This document shows, one piece after another, positions 13,783 to 40,377 of a stretch of 64,000 nt of DNA. A program made the position numbers and the translations under genes. The first letter of the stretch is position 1. The number at the start of each line of letters is the position of its first letter. The notes under the pieces were generated by a model. It ran no database searches. It saw only the letters and a list, made by a program, of their open reading frames with translations, and was not told the origin of the DNA. This stretch comes from a virus (Duplodnaviria; Caudoviricetes): IMG/VR virus record IMGVR_UViG_2831870349_000001. One strand, given 5' to 3'.

Positions 13783-13783
13783 T

Positions 13784-14415: not shown

Positions 14416-14437
14416 GACGGAAAGGAAATTTGAAATT

Positions 14438-14857: not shown

Positions 14858-14884
14858 CCTTTGCCGCCGGAGAGGAACAAGACC

Positions 14885-15220: not shown

Positions 15221-15284
15221 TATCTGAAATCGGATTATCCAAGCTTCCCAAGGATGAGCCAAGCTTCCCAAGGATGAGCCAATT

Positions 15285-26289: not shown

Positions 26290-26368
26290 CCTTGGGTAGC
26301 TCAGCCTGGTAGAGCGCACGGCCTTGAAAACCGTGAGGTCGGGGGTTCAAATCCTTCCCCTCGGACCA
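26290..26368 (+). tRNA. Atypical tRNA with 9-nt anticodon loop CCTTGAAAA (Phe-GAA-like body, or Ser-TGA reading)
   Basis: TAGCTCAGCCTGGTAGAGC D-arm, CACGG/CCGTG stem, GGTTCAAATCC T-arm, encoded CCA. Confidence 0.8.
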
Positions 26369-26440: not shown

Positions 26441-26517
26441 GCCTGCGTAGCTCAATATAGTAGAGCGCCCGATTTGTCATCGGGAAGATGGTTGCTCACA
26501 GCGGCCCGCGGGCCCCA
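26441..26517 (+). tRNA. Degenerate tRNA-Thr(TGT)-like gene
   Basis: GCCTGCG/CGCGGGC acceptor, GCTC/GAGC D-stem, CCCGA/TCGGG anticodon stem, GGTTG/CGGCC T-stem with non-canonical loop, CCA. Confidence 0.65.
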
Positions 26518-26711: not shown

Positions 26712-27188
26712 ATGACAGCAAATCAAATCGTGCAAGCGCATCCCAATATCACCGCTGAGGGAATGGCGCTCTTTATGAAGCTTCCCGTGGACCGCGCGCG
26801 CAAAGTCCTCGCCGCCGCAAAAGCCTGGAACGCGGCGCCAATGACGCGGCGCCTGGAGGGCATGCGCCGGATCGCAGCCAAAGAAGTCAGCCTTCACGTC
26901 GAGAGCGTGGCCACCTCGCGCAGCTACCAGAAGCACGTTCGCCGCTACACCGAAGTTGAGGCCGAGCGGCATGATCTTTGCCGGCGAAGCGCGCCCGACC
27001 CGATGATGAAGCTCGATGTCAAGGACCACACGACACTGATCGACGGTTTTGACGACGTGACTGTCGCTCCGTGCGTTCTCGGTAAGCAGGTAGCAGACAA
27101 ATCGCGCGTTCAGTTTTTCTGCGACCACAACGGCGTCATCGGGGACCTGATCACCCGCGCGAAGGCCGAGCGCAAGGCGGCCGTATGA
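26712..27188 (+). CDS. Hypothetical protein
   Basis: GAGG RBS. Confidence 0.6.
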   Translation: MTANQIVQAHPNITAEGMALFMKLPVDRARKVLAAAKAWNAAPMTRRLEGMRRIAAKEVSLHVESVATSRSYQKHVRRYTEVEAERHDLCRRSAPDPMMKLDVKDHTTLIDGFDDVTVAPCVLGKQVADKSRVQFFCDHNGVIGDLITRAKAERKAAV

Positions 27189-27298
27189 GCGTCTTCTCTG
27201 CAACTATCGGCATTCTCGCCGCCGTCATGCTGCTGGCCGTCCTCTGGTGCGCCTGGCCGCGCGGCGGCGGATCTTGATTTCAAATCGCGTGCACTACC

Positions 27299-27493
27299 AT
27301 GAACTCTGCTGTCTGGATGCGCTTTGTCCGCGACGGAGTGAGGCCGGAGACGGCGGCGATCCTGCTCGGATGCACGACGGAGTACGCGGCGGCGGAGATG
27401 AAGCGAGTCGAGAAGCGCGAGGCGGATCGCCAGGCGCGGGACGAGGCGGACCATCAACTGCAAAGCACCTGGAATAAACTTCGTAAACGGTAG
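27299..27493 (+). CDS. Small hypothetical protein
   Basis: Operonic. Confidence 0.5.
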   Translation: MNSAVWMRFVRDGVRPETAAILLGCTTEYAAAEMKRVEKREADRQARDEADHQLQSTWNKLRKR

Positions 27494-27500
27494 GAATATT

Positions 27501-27851
27501 ATGAACGCACGAACATTGCACGCAATTACGGCGCTGGGCGCACTGGCCGGTGTGATGCCGAGACGGTTGCTGATCGATCAGCCGCGAAGTTATAACAAGG
27601 TCTCCACTCGTCTTGTCAGGCGAATGCCATCGCAGAACAAATGGCCTTTTACTGGCGCGACGGGATTTTCGCTGGAGTCGCTTCGCGGCGCCCACGCCAA
27701 GCGGCTTTCGCGACAAGTTCGGAACCTGCGGCATGCCGCGCGCGGCGGATACGGCAAACTGGACCAGAGAACCGACGCACAGAAGCGCCAGGACGCCGAG
27801 GGTTTCTACGGCTACGGCGTCAATCCCCTAGTCGCTGCCGGCTCTGACTGA
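27501..27851 (+). CDS. Basic hypothetical protein
   Basis: AGGA RBS. Confidence 0.55.
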   Translation: MNARTLHAITALGALAGVMPRRLLIDQPRSYNKVSTRLVRRMPSQNKWPFTGATGFSLESLRGAHAKRLSRQVRNLRHAARGGYGKLDQRTDAQKRQDAEGFYGYGVNPLVAAGSD

Positions 27852-27912
27852 ACGTCTGATGTGCGGCGCGCGCGGCGGATAGGGATTGAGACGCGATGAA
27901 AATGTACTCGCT

Positions 27913-27975
27913 GCTCCGTGGGCGCTCCTGACGCCTGCGGAGTAAACATTTCAGGAGACGCCTCAGGAGGGCGTC
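27913..27975 (+). promoter_or_regulatory. Kissing-hairpin leader motif, copy A
   Basis: Loop CTCCTGA complementary to loop TCAGGAG, which holds the SD. Confidence 0.7.
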
Positions 27976-27979
27976 AAAT

Positions 27980-28531
27980 ATGCCAAGTTATCCTGGAGAC
28001 GACGGATCTCTCATTCTACATTTCGGTTCTGGCGATATTGCGATCTGTCCTAGCAAAGGTCTTGACCGCGAATGTGAAGACGAAATCGCATTCATAGTCC
28101 ATGAGCCGGGAGAAGTCGGACGCTATTACGGTGAATGGAAAGGAAAGTCCACGTCAGAACTCAACACGCCGGTTCGGATGATCTTCGATACCGTTGACGC
28201 GCTGGATGTTGTGGTCGAACAGCTGACGACACTGCGTTTCAAGATGACTGGAGATGAGCAGCCAACGTGCCAAGTACAGGCAGGTTTCGCCTGGACGGAC
28301 ATGGCGGCGAGCGCATACCGCGCCTACGCTGCATCAACCGGCAACAAGAACTTTCGCGGTGAGCCTATGCCAGCGTTTGATGACCTGCCAGTCGCCATTC
28401 AAACAGCGTGGGAGGCGGCTGTTCGGCATGTCGGCAACGCGATTGAGAACCCCCGTGCTTTGAATTCCACTAAAGAGCAAAGCTGGCAACACTGGGTTCG
28501 TCCACAGGATAAGGAAGCAAACCATGTGTAA
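27980..28531 (+). CDS. Hypothetical two-domain protein
   Basis: AGGAGG RBS; MPAFDDLP...AW motif. Confidence 0.7.
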   Translation: MPSYPGDDGSLILHFGSGDIAICPSKGLDRECEDEIAFIVHEPGEVGRYYGEWKGKSTSELNTPVRMIFDTVDALDVVVEQLTTLRFKMTGDEQPTCQVQAGFAWTDMAASAYRAYAASTGNKNFRGEPMPAFDDLPVAIQTAWEAAVRHVGNAIENPRALNSTKEQSWQHWVRPQDKEANHV

Positions 28532-28805
28532 GTGCACCCCCGGGATCCGGACCCCGTTTTGCGGCAAGCCTGGCTGTACGTGGACCGATGATCCTGAGGA
28601 GGTCGATCCTAAATCGCTGGCTGCTGAGAAAGCCGACTTCCTGCGCGCCGAAATGCAGAAAATCATCACTGTAGCTCGCGACTGCAAAAGCACGGGCCTC
28701 CTGTATAACCGCGAGCTTTCGGAAGCTATTACCTGTGCGGAGACGGCGTATCTCTGGTTGGAGCAGTTACCCGGCGGGAGTAAGTCGCTAGAGTTTGGCG
28801 GCTGA
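28524..28805 (+). CDS. Hypothetical protein
   Basis: AAGGA RBS; RELS.AIT..ETA..W helical motif. Confidence 0.6.
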   Translation: MCKCTPGIRTPFCGKPGCTWTDDPEEVDPKSLAAEKADFLRAEMQKIITVARDCKSTGLLYNRELSEAITCAETAYLWLEQLPGGSKSLEFGG

Positions 28806-28843
28806 GACGTTCACCCTCATCAGAATCTACCCCCATATAGCAC

Positions 28844-29503
28844 ATGCTAGCCACCAAACGACAAATCGAGCGCGCGATGCTGTCGCGGCCGCTTCCGCCA
28901 TCTCGCCTGTCGGACGAAGGGCGGATGGTGACGCGGTTCGAACCGGCCGAGGACCTTGCCGAGTGGGTCATGCGCGCGATCATCGACGAGGATGGGCCGC
29001 TCGCCAATCCCGCACACCAGCATCTGCGGACGGCGTCGATCGGGTTCCTCTGGACGAATGCGCCGAACTTTCGCGGCGGCCATGCGGTCGCCGGCATGAC
29101 CGAGAAGCCGATCTGCCAGGGCAATCGCTGGCAAAAGGCGCGCCACGATCTTCAGCTGTCCGCATGGTTTCCCCGAAATCTCGATTTCCTGATCACCTTG
29201 GATGCTGTGTTCGCCGCCGAGAACCCCGACGTCAATTTTTGCGCGCTGGTCGAGCACGAACTTTACCATATTGCTCACGCCAAAGATCAATTCCGGATTA
29301 AGAAATTCAGCAAATCGACCGGCAAACCGATCCTGGCGCTCCGAGGCCATGATGTCGAGGAGTTTGTCGGTGTCGCCGAGCGGTACGGCGCCGGGGCGTG
29401 CGCCGGCGCGACGGCGGAGCTGGTGCGCGTCTCGAACCTGCCGCCGCTGATCGGTGAGGCGTCGATTCGGGCCGCGTGCGGCAATTGTCTGCGAATGGTT
29501 TAG
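28844..29503 (+). CDS. Putative phage metallopeptidase
   Basis: ALVEHELYHI, HDVEEFVGV.ERYG. Confidence 0.88.
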   Translation: MLATKRQIERAMLSRPLPPSRLSDEGRMVTRFEPAEDLAEWVMRAIIDEDGPLANPAHQHLRTASIGFLWTNAPNFRGGHAVAGMTEKPICQGNRWQKARHDLQLSAWFPRNLDFLITLDAVFAAENPDVNFCALVEHELYHIAHAKDQFRIKKFSKSTGKPILALRGHDVEEFVGVAERYGAGACAGATAELVRVSNLPPLIGEASIRAACGNCLRMV

Positions 29504-29510
29504 GTGTGCG

Positions 29511-30155
29511 ATGGGACGACCTAGGAAAGATGCGGCGAAGCCGCCGGTGGCGGCCAAGGGGGGTGTGGCGAAAGCCGACTCGCCGAAGGTGTCGGCTTCC
29601 ACCGTGCCAGGTCCCAAAACGCTGCCATCAGATATCGTTACTTATATCATCGACCGGTTGGCGCAGTACGCTGGGCCAACAGAGATACGCTCCGAGATTA
29701 TGGATTTGTTCGGACGGGATGTGCCGAAGGCGACGATCAATCGCTACAACCCTAACACGGTGCAGGGCGAAAAGGAAATGGCGGAAGCGCTGAAGGCTTT
29801 GTTTTTCGAGCGACGAGCTCGGTACCTGGACCGCCTTGACGACATCCCGATCGCGAATCCCGCTGTGCGGCTCCAAAAGATCCAGTCAGTTGTCGATCGC
29901 TGCGAAATCAACGGGAACGACGTCCTTCTCCTCCAGGCGGCAAAGCAGGCGGCGGAAGAGCGCGGCGGCGCTTATACGAACCGGCGCGAACTGACAGGCA
30001 AGGATGGCGGCGCGATCGCTCTCAAGAACGAACCGCCGGTGGAGCTCTCAAAGCTCAGCGAGGAGAGGTTCAAATTGCTTGAAAGCATCTATGCCGAAGC
30101 CGGCTCTGGAGATCTGGACACCGGCACAAATCCGAGCGGAGCGACGTCGGCGTGA
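29511..30155 (+). CDS. Terminase small subunit (DUF2280-like)
   Basis: IPIAN..VRL, QAA.E.GG.YTNRRELTGKDGG; upstream of the large subunit. Confidence 0.85.
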   Translation: MGRPRKDAAKPPVAAKGGVAKADSPKVSASTVPGPKTLPSDIVTYIIDRLAQYAGPTEIRSEIMDLFGRDVPKATINRYNPNTVQGEKEMAEALKALFFERRARYLDRLDDIPIANPAVRLQKIQSVVDRCEINGNDVLLLQAAKQAAEERGGAYTNRRELTGKDGGAIALKNEPPVELSKLSEERFKLLESIYAEAGSGDLDTGTNPSGATSA

Positions 30156-31665
30156 TATAGCCGCATGCCGCGCGCATCTGCGTGACTTTGTTCAGCATTC
30201 ATGGCACATCATTGAGCCGGGAATGCCGCTGATCAACAACTGGCATGTGGACTGTATCTGTGATCATCTGGAGGCGGTGACTTTAGGTCACATCCGTGAC
30301 CTGCTCATTAATATCCCACCCGGGCATATGAAGTCGCTCCTAGTTAGTGTCTTCTGGCCGGCATGGGAATGGATCCAAAATCCGCGCGAACGCTCTCTAT
30401 TCTCGTCCTACGCCGTGGATCTTGCAATCCGTGATAGCGTTCGTTGCCGAGACCTGATCACTTCCGACTGGTACCAGGAGTGGTTCGAGCCGGACTGGAA
30501 AATGAAGGGCGACCAGAACGTTAAGTCCTGGTTTCAGAACGATAAGACCGGTTTTCGGTTTTCGATGTCCGTCGGCGGCCGCGCTACTGGTTTTCGCGGA
30601 AACAAGATCGTGGTCGACGACCCTTTGAACGCCAAGGAAATGCATTCGAAGGCGACCCGCGACGAGTGCATCTTCTGGTGGGACAAAGTGATGCCCACGC
30701 GGATCAATGATCCGCGTGGCGGCAAGCGCGTCGTGATCATGCAGCGTTTGCATGAAGAAGATCTGTCCGGACATATACTTGCGAAGGGCGGCTTCGAGCA
30801 TCTTTGCCTGCCGTCGGAATTTGAGCCGGAGCGCCGTTCGCGTACATTCATCTTCTCCAAGGATAATGATCTTAATGATGGCGAAGACGAAATGCGCACT
30901 GAATTCTGGTCAGATCCGCGGACTGAGCATGGGGATCTCTTGTTCCCGGAGATGTTCACGAAGCAAGTACTCAGTCAGCTGAAAAAGGATCTGGGCGAAA
31001 CGGATTTTGCCGGGCAGCATCAGCAGTCGCCGCGACCCGCCGCCGGCATCATCTTCAAAAGCCATTGGTGGCGCTACTGGGTTCCCAAAGGTCTGCTCGG
31101 CAAACTCCCGCCGATTACCATTGTCCTGGAGGACGGCTCATTCTTTGACAGCCCCGTCATCGAGATCCCTGAGGGATTTGAAACACTCCTCCAGTCCTGG
31201 GATATGTCGTTCAAAGACAGCAAGGGCGCGGACTTCGTCGCCGGGCAGGTCTGGGCTCAGGTCAAAGCCGATTGCTTCCTGCTCGATCAAGTTTGTGAAC
31301 GCATGGATTTCACGGCCACGATCGCGGCCGTTCGCGCGATGACGGAGAAGTGGCCGCTGGCGCTCGCGAAACTCGTTGAGGATAAGGCAAACGGACCTGC
31401 GGTAATTTCCTCGCTGAAAAAAGAGATCCCGGGGCTCATCCCTATCGAACCCGAAGGTGATAAAGTCTCCCGCGCTCATGCCGTCACTCCGATGTGCGAG
31501 TCCGGAAATGTGTATCTTCCGCACCCTGCGCTTTATCCATGGATCAAGGTAACCCTCGACCGGCTGACAGCATTCCCAAACGCCGCCAAAGACGACGATG
31601 TAGACGCACTCACGCAGGCGCTCCGGCGCATGAGCAAAAAGAAACGCGTTTTCAAGTTGATGTAG
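30091..31665 (+). CDS. terL: Terminase large subunit
   Basis: INIPPGHMKS Walker A, IVVDDP Walker B, WDMSFKD/EDKANG/DDDVDA nuclease motifs. Confidence 0.95.
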   Translation: MPKPALEIWTPAQIRAERRRRDIAACRAHLRDFVQHSWHIIEPGMPLINNWHVDCICDHLEAVTLGHIRDLLINIPPGHMKSLLVSVFWPAWEWIQNPRERSLFSSYAVDLAIRDSVRCRDLITSDWYQEWFEPDWKMKGDQNVKSWFQNDKTGFRFSMSVGGRATGFRGNKIVVDDPLNAKEMHSKATRDECIFWWDKVMPTRINDPRGGKRVVIMQRLHEEDLSGHILAKGGFEHLCLPSEFEPERRSRTFIFSKDNDLNDGEDEMRTEFWSDPRTEHGDLLFPEMFTKQVLSQLKKDLGETDFAGQHQQSPRPAAGIIFKSHWWRYWVPKGLLGKLPPITIVLEDGSFFDSPVIEIPEGFETLLQSWDMSFKDSKGADFVAGQVWAQVKADCFLLDQVCERMDFTATIAAVRAMTEKWPLALAKLVEDKANGPAVISSLKKEIPGLIPIEPEGDKVSRAHAVTPMCESGNVYLPHPALYPWIKVTLDRLTAFPNAAKDDDVDALTQALRRMSKKKRVFKLM

Positions 31666-31683
31666 ACCTGGACAAGTACACCT

Positions 31684-31812
31684 ATGACGCCATTCAAATT
31701 GTTCGAATATGCGACGGCTGTCGCCGGCGGCGTCGCCGAACTGGGCGTCGTCCTGATCGTGCTCGCGCTGGGCTCTCTGGCCGCGATCGCGTACTTCAAG
31801 AAGCCGGAATAA
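31684..31812 (+). CDS. Small single-TM protein (42 aa)
   Basis: Fills the terL-portal gap; hydrophobic segment with basic tail. Confidence 0.5.
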   Translation: MTPFKLFEYATAVAGGVAELGVVLIVLALGSLAAIAYFKKPE

Positions 31813-31821
31813 CAATCCCTT

Positions 31822-33180
31822 ATGGCAGTCTTCAAGGCCGGAAAACTAAATACCGGGAAGCTGCCGGGCCTCCGCCAGCAGATCCGTCGGGGTTTGAACG
31901 CGGTCCTGTCCATTAAGGATGGCGGCGTGACGGCCGAAGGCGACGCCGGATGGAGTGTGCTCTCCGGGCGCAATCATCAGTATTACCGGGGCAGCGTCCG
32001 CAACTGGCAAAACGAGGCGGGACCGCTCTGGGAAAACCCGGCGATCTCGATCGGAATCCAATATATCTTCAACAAGGTCGCGGAGCCGCGCCTTCAAGTC
32101 GTCTCGGATCCCGACGGAACGCCCACGCCGATCCCCGGGCACGCACTGATTCAGCTGCTTCGCAGGCCCAACGGCGAATACAGCTGGCGCGCGATGCTCC
32201 AGGCCTGCGCTGCGTCCTATAAGCTGGACGGAAACGCCTATATCGTCAAGGTGCGCGGGTCCGGTGGGTACGGGTCCGTTCAGCAGCTCTGGTATATCGC
32301 GCACTGGCAGATGGAGCCTCTGGCGCCGCTCGGGAACGGGCCGACCGAGTTCTACAAGCGCACGCTCCCAAATGGTAAGACGGAAGTCTATGCGCGCGCC
32401 AACGTCATCCACTTCAAGAACGGTCTCGATCTGGAGAACAACCGGAAGGGCTACGCCCCCTTCCGCGCTGAGTTCCGCGAAGTCGTCTCCGACAACGAGA
32501 TCGCGACGTTCACCGCGTCGATCCTGAAAAACCTCGGCGTCGCGATCATGATCTCCCCCGTCGGCGACGACGCCGAGATGGACACGGATACGGTCGACGA
32601 GCTGAAAGACAAGGTCCGGGTAGGTATTTCGGCGGACAACCGGGGCGGCCTGGTCATGCCCTCGATTCCCGTACGCGCCGATCGCATAGGATCCACCCCG
32701 CAGGAAATGGCGCTCGACACCATCGGGGACCGTCCGGAGTCGCGGATCTTCGCCACGCTCGGCATCGAGCCGATGGCGGTCGGACTTCCCTCCGGCAACA
32801 CGAAGTACGCGAACAAAAAAGAGGCGCGCGAGGCGTCCTACGAAAACGGCATCATCCCGATGCTTTCCGTGTTCGGGGAGACACTCACGGATGAATTGCT
32901 GCCCGATTTTCACGCCGGGCAAAAGAGTGCGCCGGACGAGGTCGTCGCGTTCAACTACGACAAAGTCCGTGACCTTCAGCCGGACCTCGACGCCAAGCAC
33001 AAACGCTTCTGGGGCGACTTCAAGAACGGTATCGGCAAACTGAGCGAAGCGCGCGCCGGTCTTGGTTACGAGAAGGACGAGCAGATTGACGGATATTATT
33101 TCGAGTTGATGCCGGCAAAAACCGCAACGCCCGACGGATCCCAGGGCGTCAGCGACGATCCTGACGCCGCCGACAAGTAG
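31822..33180 (+). CDS. HK97-family portal protein
   Basis: LLRRPN, L.GNAY, VIHFK, G..P motifs; position. Confidence 0.93.
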   Translation: MAVFKAGKLNTGKLPGLRQQIRRGLNAVLSIKDGGVTAEGDAGWSVLSGRNHQYYRGSVRNWQNEAGPLWENPAISIGIQYIFNKVAEPRLQVVSDPDGTPTPIPGHALIQLLRRPNGEYSWRAMLQACAASYKLDGNAYIVKVRGSGGYGSVQQLWYIAHWQMEPLAPLGNGPTEFYKRTLPNGKTEVYARANVIHFKNGLDLENNRKGYAPFRAEFREVVSDNEIATFTASILKNLGVAIMISPVGDDAEMDTDTVDELKDKVRVGISADNRGGLVMPSIPVRADRIGSTPQEMALDTIGDRPESRIFATLGIEPMAVGLPSGNTKYANKKEAREASYENGIIPMLSVFGETLTDELLPDFHAGQKSAPDEVVAFNYDKVRDLQPDLDAKHKRFWGDFKNGIGKLSEARAGLGYEKDEQIDGYYFELMPAKTATPDGSQGVSDDPDAADK

Positions 33181-33279
33181 ATCTATCGTAAGAGTAGATC
33201 TGCCGAGAGAATAGATCTGTCGTAAGAATAGATCTGTCGTAAGAATAGATCTGTCGTAAGAATAGATCTGTCGTGAGAT
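33178..33279. repeat. Six 17-bp tandem repeats (TAGATCTGTCGTAAGAA)
   Basis: Read directly; intergenic between portal and protease. Confidence 0.92.
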
Positions 33280-33325
33280 CGGAACTCTTTGATTCTCACG
33301 ACATTCCCCCGACGAAAGCCTTCCC

Positions 33326-34765
33326 ATGAGTGACATCACAGTCGTGAATAATCTCACGCGCGTTGACAAATTCTTCAATCTGAAGGCTGCCAACACGTCC
33401 ATCGAAGACAACTATATCGATTCCGTGCCTTCGGTCATGGGCGTGATGGATGAAGGCGCGGATGTGATCTTCCCGGGCGCGTTCACGAAGAGCGGGGCGC
33501 TGGAAAGCTTCCTGAAGCGTGGATTCGTCCCTACCGACCACAAATGGGAGTGGACGGAGATCGTCGCGATGCCGATTTCCGCGAAGGAGGACGGCAACAA
33601 GCTCGTCAGCCGCGCGGTCTTCCACACCACGCAGAAGGCGCAGGACGCCCGCACGATCTGCATGGAGCGCCTGGCGCAGGGACTTTGGATCGGCGAGTCC
33701 GTCGGCTTTGGCATGTACGCCGGCGATTACAAATGGTTTGCCTCCGGACAGGCGCTGCTGACCTGGGCTGAGGCGAATGGATACGACCTGTCCCTTTTTG
33801 ATGCGGATGGGATCAAGTCCTGGAAGACGACGTGCCGGGGCATCATCAATATCCCCGAGCTTTATGAATATAGCATTGTCCCGGTCGGCATGAACCGCTG
33901 GGCGGAGGCGGTCGACGTGAAATCAGACAATCAAAAATCCGGACAGATCACCCTTGCCGCCTTGCCGGCCTTGCTCAAGGAGCTCTCCGACGCCGGCGCG
34001 CCGATCACGCTGCCTGACGGAACCGTGCTCGTCCCGAAATCGGCGCCGGCGCCGGGCGGAGCGCGCGAACTGGTGGCGATCGCCAAAGACGGCAAGGTGA
34101 CGCTGAAGGGCGAGTACCTGGGCGATATCGAGATCGATATGACGCTGAGCGCCGCCTACGATCTGTGCTACACGATGTACTACATCGTCGCCGCGCAGCT
34201 GCGCGGCAACTGGTCCTGGGACGATGTCGCCGGAGACTATGTCCGCGTGCGCCCTCCGCTCGCCGATGCGCTGGTCGCCATTGAAGGCGCCGCAGGTGAG
34301 TTCACGGACGTACTGCTCCGTGTGATCGAAGCCATTATGTCCGGCGTCGAAGGCGCGCAGGACGCCGAAGAAGTCGAGGTCGAACTCGAAGCGATGGCGG
34401 GCGGCCCCGACGTCAAACAATTGTCCGATTCCCTGCATGCCGGGGAATCGTTTCAAAAACAGCTGGGAACGGTGCGTGCTGCCGTGAAGAGCTGCTCCGA
34501 TCGCGCGAAGGCGATCCATCTCATCCGCGTCAAGGAAGGGCGGGCGCTGTCGGAAACCAACCGGCAGAAGCTCACCTCGCACCGCGACGCGCTGGCGGAC
34601 TGCGTCAAGGCGATCGACGATCTGCTGGAGGAGACAAAGAACAACGCGGAAGAGGCGACTGAAAAGTCACTTGAAGTAAGTGAAAAGCTTGCTCCGGCCG
34701 CGTCCGTTCTCAAGGCTCGGCGTGATTTCCTGATCCAGGAGCTGGCGGGAGTCCTCGGCGAGTAA
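33326..34765 (+). CDS. HK97-family prohead protease with C-terminal extension
   Basis: D.GADVI.PGAF, DH, ESVGF, LYEYSIVPVGMN, KEGR.LS..N. Confidence 0.9.
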   Translation: MSDITVVNNLTRVDKFFNLKAANTSIEDNYIDSVPSVMGVMDEGADVIFPGAFTKSGALESFLKRGFVPTDHKWEWTEIVAMPISAKEDGNKLVSRAVFHTTQKAQDARTICMERLAQGLWIGESVGFGMYAGDYKWFASGQALLTWAEANGYDLSLFDADGIKSWKTTCRGIINIPELYEYSIVPVGMNRWAEAVDVKSDNQKSGQITLAALPALLKELSDAGAPITLPDGTVLVPKSAPAPGGARELVAIAKDGKVTLKGEYLGDIEIDMTLSAAYDLCYTMYYIVAAQLRGNWSWDDVAGDYVRVRPPLADALVAIEGAAGEFTDVLLRVIEAIMSGVEGAQDAEEVEVELEAMAGGPDVKQLSDSLHAGESFQKQLGTVRAAVKSCSDRAKAIHLIRVKEGRALSETNRQKLTSHRDALADCVKAIDDLLEETKNNAEEATEKSLEVSEKLAPAASVLKARRDFLIQELAGVLGE

Positions 34766-34977
34766 AGTCTCGGCAGAAAAATTCACAAAACCAGCGAACC
34801 ATTCTTGATATGGTCCGCAGCACTCACATTTCCCGATAGACAGCACAAAATAGCAGCCTTTGACCGAAGGAGCCCGGCGCGGATAGCGCGCCTGGGCTCC
34901 TTTTGTTTTGGGCTGCTTTTTCATGTGCCTGTCTTCGCATTTCCCGGCGGCGCTCACGGCGCCGCGAGACACAATCC

Positions 34978-36375
34978 ATGAAAACACTGCAAGAGAAGAT
35001 GGCGGCGCGCGAGCTGCTGGTCAAGCAGGTCAAAGACCTGTTCGCGAAGGCTGAGCAGACCACCGAGGACCTGGACGCTATCGAAAAAGCCAACGACGAG
35101 ATCAAGGCGCTGGACGCCGAGATCGTCCGCTTGAAGAGCATTGAAGATATCCGCAAGGCGAACGCCGAGCGGGAAGCCGAGATCGCGACTCTGGGCCAGC
35201 GCCCGGAACTTGGCAACAGCGCGCCGACCTTCGCGGAAAAGACCGGCATCGTCCCCGTGGAGTTTAAACTCTCCCGCCCTGAGAACTTCCTCAAGATCAC
35301 GAACGATCTGGAGAAGGCGCAGACCAAGGCGTATCGCATGGGCCACTTCCTGCTGGCGACCCTTGGCAACAACGCCAAGTCCCAGGCGTGGTGCGCGAAG
35401 AACGGGATCGAGCTTCGCTCCCAGAGCGAGACCGATAACGCCGCCGGCGGCTTCCTGGTGCCGGCTGAGTTCGACAACGATTTGATCGTCCTCCGCGAAA
35501 TCTACGGCGTCTTCCGCAAGTATGCGAAGAAGTCGACCATGCGCAGCGACACCAAGATGGTTCCGCGCCGCACCGGCGGCCTGAAGGCGTACTGGGTCAC
35601 CGACGGGCAAGGAATCACCGAGAGCCAAAAAGGCTGGGACATGGTGACCTTGATCGCGAAGAAGCTCGCGTGCCTTGCGCTCTATTCGAGCGAGCTGAAC
35701 GAAGACGCGATCATCGACATTACGAACGACCTGGCCGGCGAGATCGCGTACGCGTTCGCGCTGACCGAGGACTTCGCGGGCTTCGTCGGCGACGCCACGA
35801 GCGCTTACGGCGGCATCACGGGCGTCACGAATAAGTTCCTGGGTCTCAGCGCAACCGTCGCCAATATCGCCGGCCTCTATGTGGCGAGCGGCGCCGGCTA
35901 CGCGAATAACTGGGACAGCATCACGCTGAAGGACTTTGGCAAGCTGAAGGGTCTCTGCCCGCAGTACGCGCTCCAGAAGGACGCGGCCTGGTACTGCTCC
36001 CAGGCGTTCTACTCGGACGTCATGGAAGCACTGATGCTCGCCGCCGGCGGCGTCACCGCGATGGAAGTGGCGATGGGCCGCAAGGAGCTGACGTTCATGG
36101 GCTATCCCGTGCGCATCAGCCAGGCGATGCCCCAGTCCTCGGCGCAGAACCAGATCCCGGTCTTCTTCGGAGACCTGAGCCTGGCCGCGCTGTTTGGCGA
36201 TCGCCGCGAGACCACGATCGCCACGTCGAGCGAGTACCGCTTCGCGAACGACCAGCTTGCCATCAAGGGCACTGAGCGCGTCGATATCATCGTGCATGAC
36301 ATCGGCAACGCGGACGCCGTCGCGGCCAACCGCAAGGTCGGCCCGCTCGTCGCGATGATCACGCCGAACGCGTAA
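34978..36375 (+). CDS. HK97-fold major capsid protein
   Basis: Coiled-coil delta domain, GGFLVP, S.EL.ED, L.G.PV, FGD.S. Confidence 0.95.
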   Translation: MKTLQEKMAARELLVKQVKDLFAKAEQTTEDLDAIEKANDEIKALDAEIVRLKSIEDIRKANAEREAEIATLGQRPELGNSAPTFAEKTGIVPVEFKLSRPENFLKITNDLEKAQTKAYRMGHFLLATLGNNAKSQAWCAKNGIELRSQSETDNAAGGFLVPAEFDNDLIVLREIYGVFRKYAKKSTMRSDTKMVPRRTGGLKAYWVTDGQGITESQKGWDMVTLIAKKLACLALYSSELNEDAIIDITNDLAGEIAYAFALTEDFAGFVGDATSAYGGITGVTNKFLGLSATVANIAGLYVASGAGYANNWDSITLKDFGKLKGLCPQYALQKDAAWYCSQAFYSDVMEALMLAAGGVTAMEVAMGRKELTFMGYPVRISQAMPQSSAQNQIPVFFGDLSLAALFGDRRETTIATSSEYRFANDQLAIKGTERVDIIVHDIGNADAVAANRKVGPLVAMITPNA

Positions 36376-36517
36376 TCATCGGCCCCGTCCTCGTCCTAAA
36401 CAGACCTCGCCTTTGACCAAAATCCTCCGCTCCATCCGCCCACGCGCACCGCCCACGGCGGTGCGCGTGGGCGGCGGGGCGGATTATCTACGGCGCGCCT
36501 GCTGGCGCCGGGAGAGA

Positions 36518-36973
36518 ATGAATATGATCGGTACTCACAACTTTAAGAAGGTCGTCGCAATCGCGCCGGCGTCCTTCACCAACGGCGCGACCGCGTCGGG
36601 GATCATCGATACCGCCGGTTTCGACGCGATGACGCTGGATCTAATCACGTCGCCGGCCAATAACGCCACCAACTCGCCGACGGTCCTCAAGCTCCAGGAA
36701 GCGGATGTGACCAACGCCACATCGTTCACCGACATTCCCCAGTTTGTCGGCGGCGGCGCGGGCGGCTTCGCCATCCCGAATGAGAAGACCGTGGCTAGCA
36801 CCGCCCCGTTTGCCTCGTTCAACGTGGACCTTCGGAGTCGCAAGCGCTATATCCAGGTCGTGGACGTTCCGCAGACCACGCAGATCGTCAGCGCGATCGC
36901 GCAGCTCGGCCGCGCGGAGCAGACGCCCGTCGGCGCGGCGTCGCAGAACGTTGCTGTCGTTGTTACTGGCTAA
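36518..36973 (+). CDS. Capsid decoration/cement-like protein
   Basis: IDTAGF...LQEAD...F.D...KRYI beta-sandwich directly after the capsid gene. Confidence 0.65.
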   Translation: MNMIGTHNFKKVVAIAPASFTNGATASGIIDTAGFDAMTLDLITSPANNATNSPTVLKLQEADVTNATSFTDIPQFVGGGAGGFAIPNEKTVASTAPFASFNVDLRSRKRYIQVVDVPQTTQIVSAIAQLGRAEQTPVGAASQNVAVVVTG

Positions 36974-37070
36974 CTGGTCTGCTGAAATCAAATGCAGGCT
37001 AAGACCAATACAGTCTTAGCCTGCGCTTAAAAGCGCATTCATTTTCCAGGTTCCTCGGGAGGGAGCAATT

Positions 37071-37406
37071 ATGGACGATCAAACTACAACGGCCTCTAAA
37101 GAGCCAAAAGATTTTAACAGCGATGGTCCCGTTCAAGAAAACATCACAACTCAGGCAGTCGCAAAGCGAGCCTTAGAAGTGATGAAGTGGGCAGGATGTG
37201 CATGCGGATGGTATGACCACACCGCTGAGGGCGGTCCAACAGTCGAAAAAATGGAGAGCGATCTCCTATTTCTAGAAGCCGTGGCTGATGGTGACGACGA
37301 AAAGACCATTCACAAAAAAATAGTTGCCCTGCGCGCTAAGCAATTAGGAGATGACTTTAAAGTCCTTCTTTATAAAGCTGAGTTGCCGACAAGTTATGAC
37401 AGATAG
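37071..37406 (+). CDS. Moron hypothetical protein (lower GC)
   Basis: GGGAGG RBS in a hairpin loop. Confidence 0.6.
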   Translation: MDDQTTTASKEPKDFNSDGPVQENITTQAVAKRALEVMKWAGCACGWYDHTAEGGPTVEKMESDLLFLEAVADGDDEKTIHKKIVALRAKQLGDDFKVLLYKAELPTSYDR

Positions 37407-37442
37407 GCGAAAGCCAAAAAATAGGCTTCGGCCAAACCATAG

Positions 37443-37505
37443 CCCTGCGAGCGCTCCCGACGCTCGCAGGGTGAAATTGTATCGGGGGCGTCTCGGGAGG
37501 GCGTC
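37443..37505 (+). promoter_or_regulatory. Kissing-hairpin leader motif, copy B
   Basis: Loop CTCCCGA complementary to loop TCGGGAG (compensatory change relative to copy A). Confidence 0.7.
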
Positions 37506-37510
37506 AGCAG

Positions 37511-38257
37511 ATGGCATTAACAGAGCAAGAAGTCGCGGAGATCAATTCTCTGCTCGCTGAGTCGGGCAAGAGAGCCGCGCGCAAGATTTTCCTGGAAGTG
37601 GAAGCGAAGAGACTCCTCGAGGAATCGATGGCGGCCAACGAAGAACTAAACAATCTGCGTTTTGACTATTGTCCCGCACAGCAGCGGATTAATGAAATTC
37701 TTCGCGACGCTTCAATTCGTGAATCTGCGTGCCCAGGCGAAGTTCCGGGGCGTGTTGTAGAAAACGCCATCGCATGTGGGGACGACAACCAGGCGCTTGC
37801 TGAAGACGAACGCCCGCTGAATCGCTATGCAGTGGATTATGAGTTTGGGGCAGCAAAGTTCTACACACGATCTATCGACATAGACGAAGCGCGGCTCGAA
37901 TTTTATGACTGCGCCAACGAATGCTTCGGTATTCGTAAGTCGATTGGAGACGTAAAAATCAACCTTGAGGCGGAGAACGTCCACCTGCCTGTCCAGGATG
38001 CGAAACAGATCTCCTATTTCACTCACGCACTTCTATACGGCCAAACTTCAGGTATCGGAGACGAAGTCATTTTCGACCGGCGTTATAAGACGGCAAGCGG
38101 TGAGGGGTGGAAACTTCAAAACGAGAGCGGAGAGCGTTGCACCTGCGCGACGCGTGGCAGCGCCGAACTTGCCTGCGAAGTGCATCACTTCTGGGTTGAA
38201 AATCATAACCACGTCTGCCCATGCACCAATCCGTCGTGGGAGGCGCCGCACAAATGA
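37511..38257 (+). CDS. Moron hypothetical protein
   Basis: ORF with RBS; Cys/His-rich C terminus. Confidence 0.6.
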   Translation: MALTEQEVAEINSLLAESGKRAARKIFLEVEAKRLLEESMAANEELNNLRFDYCPAQQRINEILRDASIRESACPGEVPGRVVENAIACGDDNQALAEDERPLNRYAVDYEFGAAKFYTRSIDIDEARLEFYDCANECFGIRKSIGDVKINLEAENVHLPVQDAKQISYFTHALLYGQTSGIGDEVIFDRRYKTASGEGWKLQNESGERCTCATRGSAELACEVHHFWVENHNHVCPCTNPSWEAPHK

Positions 38258-39771
38258 ATCCTCAAAACCTCCTTTTGAATCTAGGCTCTGGGGATCTTCC
38301 ACTTCGCGGCCACATCAATATCGACCGCAAATACGAAAAGGATGTCCTTCACGTGGACGAAGACACCATTCTCTGGCGCGGCGAAGTCTACCCACTGGCT
38401 TTCGATGATGAAAGCGTCTGCGGCGTGCGCGCCTCACACGTGTTGGAGCATTTCAGCCATCGCGAGACGATGGCGGTCCTGGCCGACTGGGTTCGCGTCT
38501 TGAAGCCGGGCGGGCTTCTCTGTGTCGCCGTCCCGAACTTCGAATGGATCGCAAGGCGCTACCTCGAATCCCTCACCAATTCCGCCGCCGCCGCGCTTCC
38601 GCTGGAAGGGTATCTGATGGGCGGGCATGTGGATGATAATGATCACCACGGCGCCATTTTTGATGAGCAGAGCCTGCGCGCGGCAATGGAGCATCTGGGA
38701 CTGGTCAACATCTACACATGGGATTCCGAAGTCGCGGACTGCGCCTCGCTTCCCGTTTCGCTGAACCTGGTGGGGATGAAACCTCTTCCGGCGGATTATT
38801 CATCGATCAATAATCCTGCTCCTGGACGAATAGAGAACCCACACGGGTTTGCTGTGGGCGATCAAGTTTGGGACAATTCCGGCGACTGTGGAAACGGCTT
38901 TGGCGATGTCTTGGAGATCTACGAAAAGCACCCCAATTGCGTCAAAGTGTATTGGGAGAATGAAGGCAATCTTTGTGTGGTCCATTGCTCAATTCTAGAT
39001 CATGTCGCTGATGTTAAGACAGTTCCACAGGACAGCGTGAAAGCATCATCAGGTCCGGATTTGCGCTTTGCCTCCATCGTCATCAAGCCCGGCGACGTCG
39101 CGGCCGTGGCTACCGTACCGCGCCTTGGCTTCACGGACACGCAGTTCTGCATTATCCGCGCCGTCTGCGCCCATCCGATCAGCTTCGAGCAGAGCGGCGG
39201 CGTATTCTGGGACCAGGGGATGACACGCGTCTTCGAAAGCCATATGGACGACGGGACGAAGTATCTCCTGGCGATCGATTATGATTCGCTTTTCACCGCT
39301 GAGGATGTGCGGACGCTGTATGGCGTCATGGAAGCGCGGCCCGACATTGACGCGCTTTGCCCGGTCCAGATCCGGCGCGAGAACGATCATTCGCTCTTTA
39401 CCGTGGAAGGCGACGACGGCAAGAGCGCAACCGAGATCGATTATTCACGTTTCGAGACGGACGTTCTGAAGATCCGAACCGGCCATTTTGGCCTGACGAT
39501 GATCCGCGTGGACGCGCTGCGCCGCCTGCCGCGTCCCTGGTTCCATGCCCGGCCCGACGACGCCGGCCGCTGGGGCGACGGGCGCGTGGACAGCGACGTC
39601 GCCTTCTGGCTCCAGTGGGCCGAGGCGGGCAACTCGCTGTACCTGGCGAACCGTGTCCCGATCGGTCACCTCCAGCTCATGGCAACCTGGCCGAGTGAGG
39701 AACTTGGTTTGAAGACTCAGTATGTCAGTGACTGGCTGAAGACAGGGAAGCCGGCGGGCGCGTGGCAATGA
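38254..39771 (+). CDS. Class I SAM methyltransferase fused to GT-A glycosyltransferase-like domain
   Basis: LNLGSG, ASHVLEH, VLKPGG; C-terminal YLLAIDYD (DxD), GHFGLTMI, D..FW, GH. Confidence 0.8.
   Translation: MNPQNLLLNLGSGDLPLRGHINIDRKYEKDVLHVDEDTILWRGEVYPLAFDDESVCGVRASHVLEHFSHRETMAVLADWVRVLKPGGLLCVAVPNFEWIARRYLESLTNSAAAALPLEGYLMGGHVDDNDHHGAIFDEQSLRAAMEHLGLVNIYTWDSEVADCASLPVSLNLVGMKPLPADYSSINNPAPGRIENPHGFAVGDQVWDNSGDCGNGFGDVLEIYEKHPNCVKVYWENEGNLCVVHCSILDHVADVKTVPQDSVKASSGPDLRFASIVIKPGDVAAVATVPRLGFTDTQFCIIRAVCAHPISFEQSGGVFWDQGMTRVFESHMDDGTKYLLAIDYDSLFTAEDVRTLYGVMEARPDIDALCPVQIRRENDHSLFTVEGDDGKSATEIDYSRFETDVLKIRTGHFGLTMIRVDALRRLPRPWFHARPDDAGRWGDGRVDSDVAFWLQWAEAGNSLYLANRVPIGHLQLMATWPSEELGLKTQYVSDWLKTGKPAGAWQ
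38795..38814. promoter_or_regulatory. Dispersed palindrome copy 5 (ATTATTCATCGATCAATAAT)
   Basis: Identical to copy 2, with GG/CC flanks; encodes DYSSINN. Confidence 0.8.
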
Positions 39772-40163
39772 AAATCCCTCACAATCACGCACGGGCACTT
39801 CAAAAGTATCGGTGGGAAACGATCCCGCTTCAGATCGTGAAGATTGATCAGAACGCTCACGATGCATTGATGCCGTTCCTACTTTCGGAAAGGGACGTTC
39901 GCGAGCATCCGGATTGGCCGCAGTGGTTTCCCTACAAGCTCGCCGAGCCGCACCAGCGCCAGGCGATGGTAAACCATGGGCAGACGCTCCGGCGTCTTGC
40001 CGAGCGCGGCGGCCTCGGCCACCGAGAACTTTACCATATTCTGCGCGACGAGCGGTTCCGCCATACCGGCCACCCTGGCGCCGTCTCCGACGAAGTCGCC
40101 GCGCTTTATCTGCAAGAACTGATTGAGGGCTATGAGCCCTCAATCGAAGGACATCAGCCATGA
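39768..40163 (+). CDS. Hypothetical phage protein
   Basis: QA..NHGQTL.RLAERGGL...E motif. Confidence 0.7.
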   Translation: MKIPHNHARALQKYRWETIPLQIVKIDQNAHDALMPFLLSERDVREHPDWPQWFPYKLAEPHQRQAMVNHGQTLRRLAERGGLGHRELYHILRDERFRHTGHPGAVSDEVAALYLQELIEGYEPSIEGHQP

Positions 40164-40345: not shown

Positions 40346-40377
40346 AAGCGGCGAAAAGCCATAGAGGAGACGAAATA

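What the first reader, a model, noticed from the sequence alone, without database searches (positions are those of the whole stretch)
27913..37505. Repeated kissing-loop RNA leader with compensatory change that covers the Shine-Dalgarno of accessory genes
Seen: copy A (27913-27975) has GCTCCGTGGGCG-[CTCCTGA]-CGCCTGCGGAGT, then GACGCC-[TCAGGAG]-GGCGTC, 4 nt before ATG 27980. Copy B (37443-37505) has CCCTGCGAGCG-[CTCCCGA]-CGCTCGCAGGG, then GGCGTC-[TCGGGAG]-GGCGTC, 5 nt before ATG 37511. The 7-nt loops are exactly complementary in both copies and covary (T-A to C-G). The stems differ in sequence but keep pairing, and cannot extend into a simple duplex. Loop 2 is the SD. Inference: a cis-acting translational control element (protein-, temperature- or ligand-responsive) that damps morons inside the late operon. 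I do not recognise it as a named family.
Basis: partly seen in the sequence, partly recalled or inferred. Interest (0 to 1): 0.82.

Follow-up and report, generated by a model that had tools for sequence, protein, structure and literature searches.

The report
Three-part phage ribosome-site RNA switch
Two gene leaders in a prophage, and about ten more in unrelated phages, each hold a hairpin whose loop mirrors the ribosome-binding site, a spare copy of that site, and a second hairpin showing the real site just before the start codon; this looks like an undescribed RNA device that sets how much of an accessory gene is translated.

Summary
Both copies read exactly as reported. Hairpin 1 keeps its pairing through many two-sided changes. 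No Rfam family matches.

A spare SD-like 7-mer ("unit 1", TCRGGRN) lies directly 5' of hairpin 2 and also complements loop 1.

The same layout is anti-SD loop hairpin, unit 1, SD-loop hairpin, then start codon. It recurs in two related prophages (G011, G023) and in eight IMG/VR contigs of 31-66% GC. Stems differ throughout and the downstream genes are unrelated. A control scan with a non-complementary motif found none.

The variable loop position is matched in 12 of 12 cases with unit 1. With loop 2 it is matched in 11 of 12, plus one G-U pair.

SD hairpins also occur alone behind ordinary terminators, and one terminator carries the anti-SD loop alone.

My best reading, at 0.5, is a portable cis-acting translation switch in which loop 1 pairs with either the decoy or the SD loop. 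Which state is the default, and what triggers a change, are unknown. No RNA data exist. It is a new variant of SD sequestration.

The parts
27913..27943 (+). Copy A hairpin 1: 12-bp stem (3 G-U pairs) with the anti-SD loop CTCCTGA at 27925-27931. No T-run follows it.
   Evidence: Read. Folded. Best CM match 27912-27982, 80.8 bits. Not listed as a + strand terminator.
27951..27957 (+). Copy A unit 1: spare SD-like 7-mer TCAGGAG. It is 7/7 complementary to loop 1, and its last G is the first base of hairpin 2.
27957..27975 (+). Copy A hairpin 2: 6-bp stem with the SD loop TCAGGAG at 27963-27969.
27980..28531 (+). 183-aa accessory gene of unknown function (weak PHROG 20502/31900 matches). It has no counterpart in the G011 or G023 prophages.
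37022..37037 (+). Terminator-like hairpin with a T-rich tail, directly before the SD-only hairpin at 37050.
37050..37066 (+). Third SD-loop hairpin: 5-bp stem, loop TCGGGAG at 37055-37061, 4 nt before ATG 37071 of a 111-aa gene. No unit 1 and no adjacent anti-SD hairpin upstream.
   Evidence: CM match 37022-37073, 18 bits.
37443..37471 (+). Copy B hairpin 1: 11-bp perfect stem with the anti-SD loop CTCCCGA at 37454-37460. It lies 36 nt after the stop of the 111-aa gene.
   Evidence: CM match 37441-37513, 85.1 bits.
37482..37488 (+). Copy B unit 1: TCGGGGG, which pairs 7/7 with loop 1 through one G-U and holds no GGA.
37487..37505 (+). Copy B hairpin 2: 6 pairs (2 G-U) with the SD loop TCGGGAG at 37493-37499.
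37511..38257 (+). 248-aa accessory gene of unknown function, followed by a 516-aa methyltransferase-like gene at 38221-39771.

Best explanation
Each copy is a self-contained, portable translation-initiation module in the mRNA. It has three matched 7-mers:
- an anti-SD (CUCCYGA) held in the loop of a stable upstream hairpin;
- a single-stranded spare copy of the SD (unit 1, UCRGGRN) directly 5' of the second hairpin;
- the real SD (UCRGGAG) in the loop of that second hairpin, 3-11 nt before the start codon.

Loop 1 can pair with only one partner at a time.
- Paired with loop 2 as a 7-bp kissing complex, it hides the SD from the 30S subunit, so the gene is off or damped.
- Paired with unit 1, it leaves the SD loop free, so the gene is on.

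The module therefore sets, and may switch, how much of the accessory gene is translated from the long late transcript.

Shown: the three parts, their conservation, the stem covariation, and the matched change in all three 7-mers.

Inferred: that the pairings form in the RNA, that they affect initiation, which state is the default, and what shifts the balance.
For: **1. Hairpin 1 is an RNA structure.** On 6 sequences, 98.5% of cells pair. 12 of 24 pairs change on both sides, including 10 of the 12 hairpin-1 pairs. 0 of 500 shuffles reach this, and slid registers give 43-51% pairing.

**2. The same layout recurs with different stems.**
- G023 and G011 prophages.
- G071/L169, found by a scan that asked for hairpin 2 only.
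- L014 and L015, found by a scan that asked for the two loops only.
- L193, L199, L204, L197 and L211, found by a three-motif scan.

**3. Hairpin enrichment in the three-motif scan.** It gave 27 unique hits.

| Feature | Observed | Background rate |
|---|---|---|
| Hairpin-1 stem of 5 or more | 8 of 27 | 3.2% |
| Hairpin-2 stem of 4 or more | 13 of 27 | 7.6% |
| Both | 7 of 27 | binomial 4e-13 |

A control scan with the non-complementary motif GAGGRCT gave 17 unique hits, with 0, 1 and 0 for the same three features.

**4. Matched variation at the Y/R position.**
- Among the structured hits of the scan, which left Y and R free, 8 of 8 are Watson-Crick with unit 1. With loop 2, 7 of 8 are Watson-Crick and one is G-U.
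- Among the unstructured hits, 10 of 19 match for each.
- winA, winB, G023 and G011 match in 4 of 4.
- A and B differ at this position within one phage. A single sequence-specific protein or DNA site would not predict that.

**5. Unit 1 goes with the anti-SD loop.**
- It is present in 7 of 7 full instances found by searches that did not ask for it: winA, winB, G023, G011, G071, L014 and L015.
- It is absent in 0 of 8 SD-only hairpins (Fisher 3e-4, computed on 6 against 8).
- L168 is a ninth SD-only hairpin, also without unit 1 (read).
- B's unit 1 keeps its pairing through G-U while losing GGA.

**6. Comparable energies.**

| Pairing | kcal/mol |
|---|---|
| Loop 1 with loop 2 | -9.8 to -11.3 |
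| Loop 1 with unit 1 | -7.9 to -11.3 |
| SD with the 16S tail | -10.8 |

**7. The TC before RGGAG is specific to the phage elements.** It does not pair with the 16S tail (read). Among 95 SD-in-loop hairpins before ORFs in the host genome, 6 carry TCR, and 3 of those 6 are in this prophage.

**8. Kissing complexes that block SDs are known.** Kissing between C-rich hairpin loops and SD regions blocks initiation in S. aureus RNAIII (PMC2837412, passages).
Against: - No experiment or RNA-seq bears on this element. No RNA run is listed for the organism.
- Nested folding cannot score kissing or pseudoknots, so the pairing is inferred from complementarity alone.
- Six of the 7 loop-loop pairs never vary. 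Loop 2 is in any case constrained by being an SD.
- Seven pairs within two 7-nt loops is sterically tight. I recall this as possible from ColE1 RNA I/II.
- SD-loop hairpins occur 9 times without a neighbouring anti-SD loop, behind ordinary terminators.
- One anti-SD-loop hairpin in G073 is a plain terminator with a T-run and has no SD hairpin after it. The parts can therefore work apart.
- The distance from hairpin 1 to unit 1 varies from 6 to 25 nt.
- The sign of the effect is open.
- GGAG starts at -14/-15, just outside the host optimum of -13 to -10.
- Five of the 12 instances come from a pattern that required all three 7-mers.
Confidence: 0.5

Rival explanations
1. The two hairpins belong to different genes. 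Hairpin 1 is the 3'-end element of the upstream gene, acting as a terminator or an exonuclease barrier. Hairpin 2 is a stand-alone SD-presenting start site. RNA fragments ending in hairpin 1 act in trans, like small RNAs with C-rich loops, on every SD-loop hairpin of the phage. Where the two happen to abut, unit 1 is a local decoy that shields the neighbouring SD.
For: - An isolated anti-SD-loop hairpin with a T-run ends a three-gene operon in G073, and that operon begins with an SD-loop hairpin.
- In the window, the 111-aa gene has an SD hairpin at its start (37050) and hairpin 1 of copy B 36 nt after its stop.
- Every genome examined has more SD hairpins than anti-SD hairpins: window 3 against 2, G011 3 against 1, G071 2 against 1, G073 2 against 1.
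- G023 and G071 have T-rich tails after hairpin 1.
- The TC of the SD loop is kept in SD-only sites.
- There is a precedent in RNAIII (PMC2837412).
Against: - Copies A and B, G011 and L014 have no T-run after hairpin 1, and neither A nor B is listed as a + strand terminator.
- In at least 4 full instances the upstream gene has no SD hairpin.
- Adjacency with a fixed order recurs 12 times.
- No RNA ends are known.
Confidence: 0.2
2. The kissing complex is an RNase III processing signal. Hairpin 1 (11-14 bp), the 7-bp loop-loop helix and hairpin 2 (4-7 bp) stack into a helix of about 25 bp. The helix is cut, which separates the head-gene mRNA from the accessory genes and changes the stability or translation of both.
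For: - The stem lengths add up to about two helical turns.
- Loop-loop complexes of RNAIII stack coaxially and are cut by RNase III on both strands (PMC2837412, passages).
- The element follows the major head gene block in the window, G011 and G023.
- Intergenic RNase III sites in phage operons are recalled from T7.
Against: - In L015, L197 and L211, hairpin 1 has only 5 pairs, so the stack would be short.
- The role of unit 1 is not explained.
- I did not look for RNase III in the host.
Confidence: 0.1
3. The 7-mers are protein sites. Unit 1 and loop 2 are a pair of GGA sites for the host CsrA dimer or for a phage RNA-binding protein, and loop 1 is a built-in competitor.
For: - The host has one CsrA gene (PF02599, 91.6 bits).
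- GGA in a hairpin loop overlapping the SD, with a second GGA 12 nt upstream, resembles CsrA targets (recalled).
Against: - B's unit 1 (TCGGGGG) has no GGA yet still pairs with loop 1.
- A protein does not explain why unit 1 appears only together with the anti-SD loop, nor the matched Y/R change within one phage.
- The element occurs in phages of 31-66% GC, which probably have different hosts.
- No protein is shared between the window and G071, G072 or G073, apart from one 309-aa protein with G073.
Confidence: 0.07
4. It is a DNA-level feature. The 7-bp core, once inverted and twice direct, marks the junctions of mobile gene cassettes, or binds a DNA protein, as proposed for the ESAS repeats of Cluster K mycobacteriophages or the PeSL cassettes of T4-type phages.
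For: - The element sits at the borders of variable genes.
- G023 and G071 share a 27-nt identical stretch (unit 1 and hairpin 2) in otherwise unlike DNA.
- The authors of SAS/ESAS favoured DNA binding for ESAS (PMC3203893).
Against: - The stems tolerate G-T on the + strand only. Copy A has 3, and B's hairpin 2 is a direct repeat in DNA.
- The stems covary freely while only the loops are fixed.
- Only 7 bp are shared between the ends of a putative cassette.
- The orientation is always that of the downstream gene.
Confidence: 0.05
5. The complementarity is a by-product: a GC-rich hairpin next to a strong SD, duplicated once within this prophage.
For: The two copies in the window share descent, so on their own they amount to little more than one observation plus one compensatory change.
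Against: - There are ten further instances in unrelated phages with other stems.
- The control scan found none.
- The variable position is matched in 12 of 12 with unit 1 and in 11 of 12 with loop 2.
Confidence: 0.02

Closest known systems
Start-associated sequences (SAS) and extended SAS (ESAS) of Cluster K mycobacteriophages (PMC3203893; passages read)
   Same: - A short conserved SD-containing sequence with symmetric outer bases (GGG-N7-CCC) lies 3-7 bp before start codons.
- It goes with genes that follow long intergenic gaps.
- About half the sites carry an inverted repeat just upstream.
- It is specific to the phages and nearly absent from the host.
- Its function is unknown but thought to concern translation initiation.
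   Different: - The sequence is different (GGGATAGGAGCCC).
- The ESAS arms are conserved in sequence, and their departures do not support RNA pairing.
- Here the arms vary freely and covary, and it is the loop that is fixed.
- No anti-SD loop or decoy is described for SAS/ESAS.
- SAS lies in the non-structural half of the genome, with 11-19 copies per genome.
C-rich (UCCC) hairpin loops of S. aureus RNAIII and related sRNAs that kiss SD regions, e.g. rot mRNA (PMC2837412; passages read)
   Same: - A hairpin loop containing UCCC pairs with a G-rich SD that is itself shown in a hairpin loop.
- The loop-loop helix stacks coaxially.
- It blocks the 30S subunit and is an RNase III substrate.
   Different: - That system acts in trans from a separate regulatory RNA.
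- Here the two hairpins lie 13-40 nt apart on one mRNA, with a decoy between them.
- There is no sequence relation between the two.
c4 antisense RNA of phages P1 and P7 (operon layout from PMC8198154, passages; loop and target details recalled)
   Same: A small structured RNA is made from the same operon, just upstream of its target. Its loops pair with the ribosome-binding region of the next gene. As I recall, heteroimmune phages differ by matched changes in loops and targets.
   Different: - c4 is processed out and acts as a free RNA, and it has its own Rfam family.
- No Rfam family, c4 included, matched here even at E up to 10.
RBS-sequestering hairpins on read-through transcripts of T4 genes e, soc and I-TevI (recalled; no paper read)
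   Same: Phage genes, including a homing endonuclease, are silent on long read-through transcripts because an upstream segment pairs with the SD. Two instances here (L197, L211) precede an HNH endonuclease.
   Different: In T4 the pairing is an ordinary stem, relieved by a promoter inside it. Here it would be a loop-loop contact, and I found no room for a promoter in the SD-only sites.

Membership tests
Any Rfam 15 family (including C4 antisense RNA, RNA thermometers and riboswitches) | Match to the family's covariance model at or near its gathering score | tested here: not met
   At gathering thresholds the whole window gave only two tRNAs. At E up to 10, 27700-28100 gave three hits of 11-13.5 bits against cut-offs of 44-70. 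37250-37650 gave none.
SAS/ESAS of Cluster K mycobacteriophages | 13-bp consensus GGGATAGGAGCCC within two departures | tested here: not met
   Hairpin 2 here is a variable stem around TCRGGAG. The consensus is taken from PMC3203893.
SAS/ESAS of Cluster K mycobacteriophages | Position 3-7 bp before the start codon of genes that follow long intergenic gaps | tested here: met
   The stem ends 4 and 5 nt before the ATG, and the gaps are 128 and 104 nt. In the other instances the stem ends 0-7 nt before the start.
SAS/ESAS of Cluster K mycobacteriophages | Upstream 17-bp inverted repeats that are conserved in sequence and do not keep RNA pairing | tested here: not met
   The hairpin-1 arms differ in every instance yet keep pairing. 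10 of 12 pairs change on both sides.
Intrinsic (Rho-independent) terminator | GC-rich hairpin followed directly by a T-run | tested here: not met
   Neither hairpin 1 is listed on the + strand, and the tails of A and B are not T-runs. The feature is met for G071 and for the isolated G073 hairpin, and partly for G023.
CsrA/RsmA binding site pair | Two GGA motifs, one in a hairpin loop over the SD | tested here: inconclusive
   Loop 2 has GGA in all instances. Unit 1 has GGA in winA, G023, G011, G071 and G072, but not in winB or L015. The host has CsrA. Binding cannot be tested with these tools.
Cis anti-SD sequestration (general kind) | An upstream segment complementary to the SD on the same mRNA | tested here: met
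   7/7 complementarity in 12 of 12 instances, one of them through a G-U pair.
Cis anti-SD sequestration (general kind) | The pairing lowers initiation | not testable with these tools
   No RNA or reporter data exist.

The most novel reading that the evidence does not exclude
This is a new family of portable cis-regulatory RNA modules that phages attach to newly acquired genes. The module is an intramolecular kissing-loop switch with a built-in decoy (anti-SD loop, anti-anti-SD, SD loop). It has spread by horizontal transfer among unrelated phages of 31-66% GC. The same loops may also link all genes that carry an SD hairpin into one trans-acting network, through RNA fragments that end in hairpin 1.
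Probability: 0.35. Interest if true: 0.8.

Novelty: new variant of a known kind. Interest (0 to 1): 0.66.

Why it matters
- Phage genomes are mosaics, and how a newly acquired gene gets a suitable level of expression inside a long late operon is poorly understood. A small, self-folding module that carries its own SD, its own anti-SD and its own decoy would be a general answer to that question.
- It would be a natural example of a three-state RNA part of the kind that synthetic biologists design.
- It also gives a testable RNA-level hypothesis for the start-associated repeats of mycobacteriophages, which have had no explanation since 2011.
- The twelve instances with different stems are enough to seed a covariance model for a new RNA family.

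Tried and rejected
**Searches that found nothing useful**
- Rfam: no family matched.
- Megablast of 27000-38500 against isolated phages: no match.
- tblastn of the major head protein against isolated phages: only matches of about 25% identity or less.
- Major head protein as a single query in IMG/VR: no relative found.
- 183-aa and 248-aa proteins in 61 related genomes: only C-terminal relatives of the 248-aa protein turned up. They lie in overlapped operons without a leader.

**Pattern scans**
15 of 120 hits had both free positions complementary, but none had the architecture. All were GC-rich coding DNA. That collection was therefore not really searched.
- The metagenome scan gave 2 loci (one sequence), on the strand opposite a cold-shock gene and with no start codon.
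- L013/L016 from the first scan lies inside a 209-aa ORF and lacks unit 1. I dropped it.

**Covariance model R1**

| Search | Result |
|---|---|
| Own genome | Only the two copies scored well |
| 71 genomes of the order (the same 71 make up the class) | Matches only in G011 and G023, plus a plain terminator in G019 |
| 151 genomes of the phylum | Only the window's own genome |

R1 is too specific for instances with a short stem or a long linker: L199 and L204 scored under 15 bits, and L015, L197 and L211 gave no match at E up to 5.

**Other negative or failed steps**
- A MAFFT alignment of all 12 instances did not keep the stems in register. The official pair count therefore rests on 6 sequences. 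The rest rests on my own scripts.
- The alternative long duplex is the MFE for winB only, 1 of 6. My forced-pairing constraint in that script was not enforced.
- Leader-peptide attenuation: no conserved small ORF. The distance from the upstream stop to hairpin 1 ranges from -17 to 209 nt.
- RNA-seq: no RNA holder is listed.
I replaced it with the complement motif.
- I did not read the supplementary figures of PMC3203893 (S3, S4). They may hold further SAS/ESAS detail.

Full report
**1. Setting**

The window is a prophage in a 7.6 Mb bacterial chromosome of 60% GC. The gene order in the region, is:

| Position | Feature |
|---|---|
| 26290, 26441 | tRNA-Ser and tRNA-Thr |
| 27913-27975 | copy A |
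| 27980-28531 | 183-aa gene |
| 28524-28805 | 93-aa gene |
| 28844-29503 | phage metallopeptidase (PF18894) |
| 29454-30155 | DUF2280 protein |
| 30004-31665 | large terminase |
| 31822-33180 | portal |
| 33326-34765 | protease |
| 34903-36375 | major head protein |
| 36413-36973 | 186-aa gene |
| 37071-37406 | 111-aa gene |
| 37443-37505 | copy B |
| 37511-38257 | 248-aa gene |
| 38221-39771 | 516-aa methyltransferase-like gene |
| 40123-40998 | head-tail adaptor-like gene |

**2.

- The hairpin-2 arms of copy B are a direct repeat in DNA and pair only through two G-U pairs.
- Hairpin 1 of copy A has three G-U pairs.
- The structures therefore make sense only as RNA (or single strands) of the + strand.

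Between the copies, hairpin 1 has three two-sided compensatory changes and two one-sided G-U changes, with no broken pair. The loops change T:A to C:G.

Chance does not give this.
- An 18-mer of hairpin 2 matches twice against 0.23 expected.
- A scan of the whole genome for two hairpins with complementary 7-nt loops found these two as the only sites with long stems at a start codon. Reversed and complement controls gave 5-10 short-stem hits per strand.
- No Rfam family matches, even at E up to 10.

**3.

- **A third matching 7-mer.** A third 7-mer complementary to loop 1 lies directly 5' of hairpin 2, at 27951-27957 (TCAGGAG) and 37482-37488 (TCGGGGG). I call it unit 1. It carries the same A or G as loop 2 of its own copy.
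- **A third SD-loop hairpin.** A third hairpin with loop TCGGGAG lies at 37050-37066, 4 nt before the ATG of the 111-aa gene. It sits behind a terminator-like hairpin and has neither unit 1 nor an adjacent anti-SD loop upstream.
- **Few other SDs in the prophage.** Most other late genes have no SD at all, including terminase, portal, protease and major head protein. The host itself uses SDs at about a third of its starts.

**4. Relatives**

The major head protein found two syntenic prophages among 71 genomes of the order: G023 at 53% identity and G011 at 43%.

Both carry the full layout after the head genes, with quite different hairpin-1 stems. The loops CTCCCGA and TCGGGAG are unchanged, and unit 1 is present. 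G011 also has two SD-only hairpins, one behind a textbook terminator.

The 183-aa, 111-aa and 248-aa genes have no counterpart in these prophages. The genes behind the element are unrelated to one another. So the element goes with variable, accessory genes.

On a model-based alignment of six sequences:
- 98.5% of cells pair;
- 12 of 24 pairs change on both sides, including 10 of the 12 hairpin-1 pairs;
- 0 of 500 shuffles reach this;
- slid registers give 43-51% pairing.

That alignment is fitted to the model, which favours the structure somewhat.

**5. Beyond the relatives**

Three kinds of IMG/VR scan found further instances.
- A scan that asked for hairpin 2 only gave 5 unique sites. One of them (G071/L169) has the full layout with a 14-bp hairpin 1.
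- A scan that asked for the two loops only gave L014 and L015, and both have unit 1.
- A scan that asked for the three 7-mers, but not for stems or a start codon, gave 27 unique hits.

| Feature | Three-motif scan (27 unique hits) | Background | Control scan, GAGGRCT (17 unique hits) |
|---|---|---|---|
| Hairpin-1 stem of 5 or more | 8 | 3.2% | 0 |
| Hairpin-2 stem of 4 or more | 13 | 7.6% | 1 |
| Both | 7 (binomial 4e-13) | | 0 |

The control scan replaced the anti-SD motif with its non-reversed complement.

The instances come from DNA of 31-66% GC. L199 and L204 carry the element before 31%-identical proteins, with no DNA similarity and different stems. G023 and G071 share only a 27-nt identical core.

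The genes downstream include:
- small proteins of unknown function;
- an HNH endonuclease;
- a tail-module protein;
- a QSregVF_b protein.

G071, G072 and G073 share no proteins with the window's phage, apart from one 309-aa protein with G073.

**6. Matched variation**

The three-motif scan left the Y of loop 1 and the R of unit 1 and loop 2 free.
- In the 8 structured hits, Y:R is Watson-Crick with unit 1 in 8 of 8. With loop 2 it is Watson-Crick in 7 of 8, with one G-U pair.
- In the 19 unstructured hits it is 10 of 19 for each (Fisher 0.02 and 0.10).
- The four instances found without patterns also match, 4 of 4.
- Copies A and B differ at this position within one phage.

Unit 1 is present in 7 of 7 full instances found by searches that did not ask for it. 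It is absent from 8 SD-only hairpins, and from a ninth, L168, by reading.

Unit 1 abuts the 5' arm of hairpin 2, at 0-3 nt in 11 of 12 instances. Its distance from hairpin 1 varies from 6 to 25 nt.

**7. The parts can occur apart**

In provirus G073 an anti-SD-loop hairpin with a T-run is a plain terminator. It ends a three-gene operon that begins with an SD-loop hairpin.

The stems of SD-only hairpins covary too, for instance AT-rich in G071 and GC-rich elsewhere, around a fixed TCGGGAG loop. The TC of that loop does not pair with the 16S tail.

In the host genome 6 of 95 SD-in-loop hairpins carry TCR. Three of the 6 are in this prophage.

**8. Mechanism**

Shown:
- three matched 7-mers in a fixed order;
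- two covarying stems;
- a position at the start codon;
- an association with accessory genes;
- spread among unrelated phages.

Inferred: loop 1 pairs either with loop 2, hiding the SD, or with unit 1, leaving the SD free.

The energies are alike:

| Pairing | kcal/mol |
|---|---|
| Loop 1 with loop 2 | -9.8 to -11.3 |
| Loop 1 with unit 1 | -7.9 to -11.3 |
| SD with the 16S tail | -10.8 |

Unit 1 is never a better partner for loop 1 than loop 2 is. It is weaker in winB, G011, G072 and L015. It is also transcribed first and is single-stranded. A fresh transcript may therefore start in the open state and relax to the closed one, or the two states may simply share the RNA and set a fixed level. 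I cannot decide this.

Other mechanisms I checked:
- Ordinary nested folding gives the two hairpins as the MFE in 5 of 6 instances. The long alternative duplex wins only in copy B.
- No conserved leader peptide exists, and there is no fixed distance to the upstream stop.
- The host has CsrA. Copy B's unit 1 lacks GGA while keeping its pairing, which speaks for RNA-RNA pairing rather than CsrA.

**9. Comparison with known systems**

- **SAS/ESAS.** The nearest described thing is the SAS/ESAS repeat system of Cluster K mycobacteriophages. It shares the position, the symmetric SD-bearing core, the upstream inverted repeat in a subset, and the phage specificity. There, however, the inverted-repeat arms are conserved and do not keep RNA pairing, and no anti-SD loop or decoy is described (PMC3203893, passages).
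- **RNAIII.** The nearest mechanism is the kissing of C-rich UCCC loops of S. aureus RNAIII with SD hairpin loops. That system acts in trans and recruits RNase III (PMC2837412, passages).
- **P1 c4.** Phage P1's c4 RNA is co-transcribed with its target (PMC8198154, passages). The details of its loops are recalled.
- **Literature search.** A full-text search for kissing, anti-SD, hairpin loop and bacteriophage found no description of such an element. 12 papers matched, 11 were listed, and I judged them from the listing only.

**10. Verdict**

This is a real, conserved phage RNA element with three parts, and not a named family. It is best read as a portable cis-acting translation module for accessory genes. 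The sign of its effect and its trigger are unknown. It is a new variant of SD sequestration.

Limits:
- no expression data exist;
- the genome collection was not effectively searched, because the scan was truncated at 120 rows;
- five instances were found with a pattern that required all three motifs.

Noticed in passing
G000 genome-wide, e.g. C1:1347715, 2823638, 6123767 (outside the window): The host has a dispersed repeat family. Each copy is two 17-nt palindromic hairpins with complementary loops (CGTGCCG and CGGCACG), about 30 nt apart, followed by TCGG or TTAG and a short GC hairpin. 43 of the 54 scan hits over both strands belong to it (each locus is hit on both strands). It looks REP- or MITE-like.
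   Followed up: no
L154 (G011:C1:1834500-1854400), + strand positions 3365, 10086, 12912, 14763, 18318: The G011 prophage carries a second repeated intergenic hairpin, with about 5 copies in 20 kb. A CCCCTCCCG arm pairs with a CGGGAAGGG arm and is followed by GGAG-like bases. This is a plain-stem version of anti-SD with SD.
   Followed up: partly
G073:C1 about 37395-37430, - strand (L172, L181): A textbook terminator (11-bp stem and a T-run) has exactly the anti-SD loop CTCCCGA. It ends a three-gene operon whose first gene starts with a TCGGGAG-loop hairpin at about 38314, which overlaps the stop of an 874-aa gene.
   Followed up: partly
window 28844-36375: The packaging and head genes (terminase, portal, protease, major head protein) have no recognisable SD. 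The three genes with TCRGGAG hairpins have the strongest SDs in the region.
   Followed up: partly
window 26290-26368 and 26441-26517: Two prophage tRNA genes, Ser(TGA) and Thr(TGT), lie about 1.4 kb upstream of copy A.
   Followed up: no
window 37511-39771; L154 reverse strand 13027-15505: The 516-aa methyltransferase-like gene is shared with G011 (43% identity). In each phage it follows a different upstream partner gene (248 aa against 295 aa). Both pairs begin with a TCGGGAG-loop hairpin, and both genes are absent from G023.
   Followed up: partly
L014 positions 1-26 and 14250-14278: The 14.4 kb IMG/VR contig repeats the anti-SD hairpin sequence at both ends. It may therefore be a circular or terminally redundant genome that was cut inside the element.
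   Followed up: no
window 12867-12886: A 4-bp hairpin with loop GCGGGAG ends 2 nt before ATG 12884, inside the end of the upstream gene. It may be a chance SD-in-loop hairpin or a weak relative of hairpin 2.
   Followed up: no
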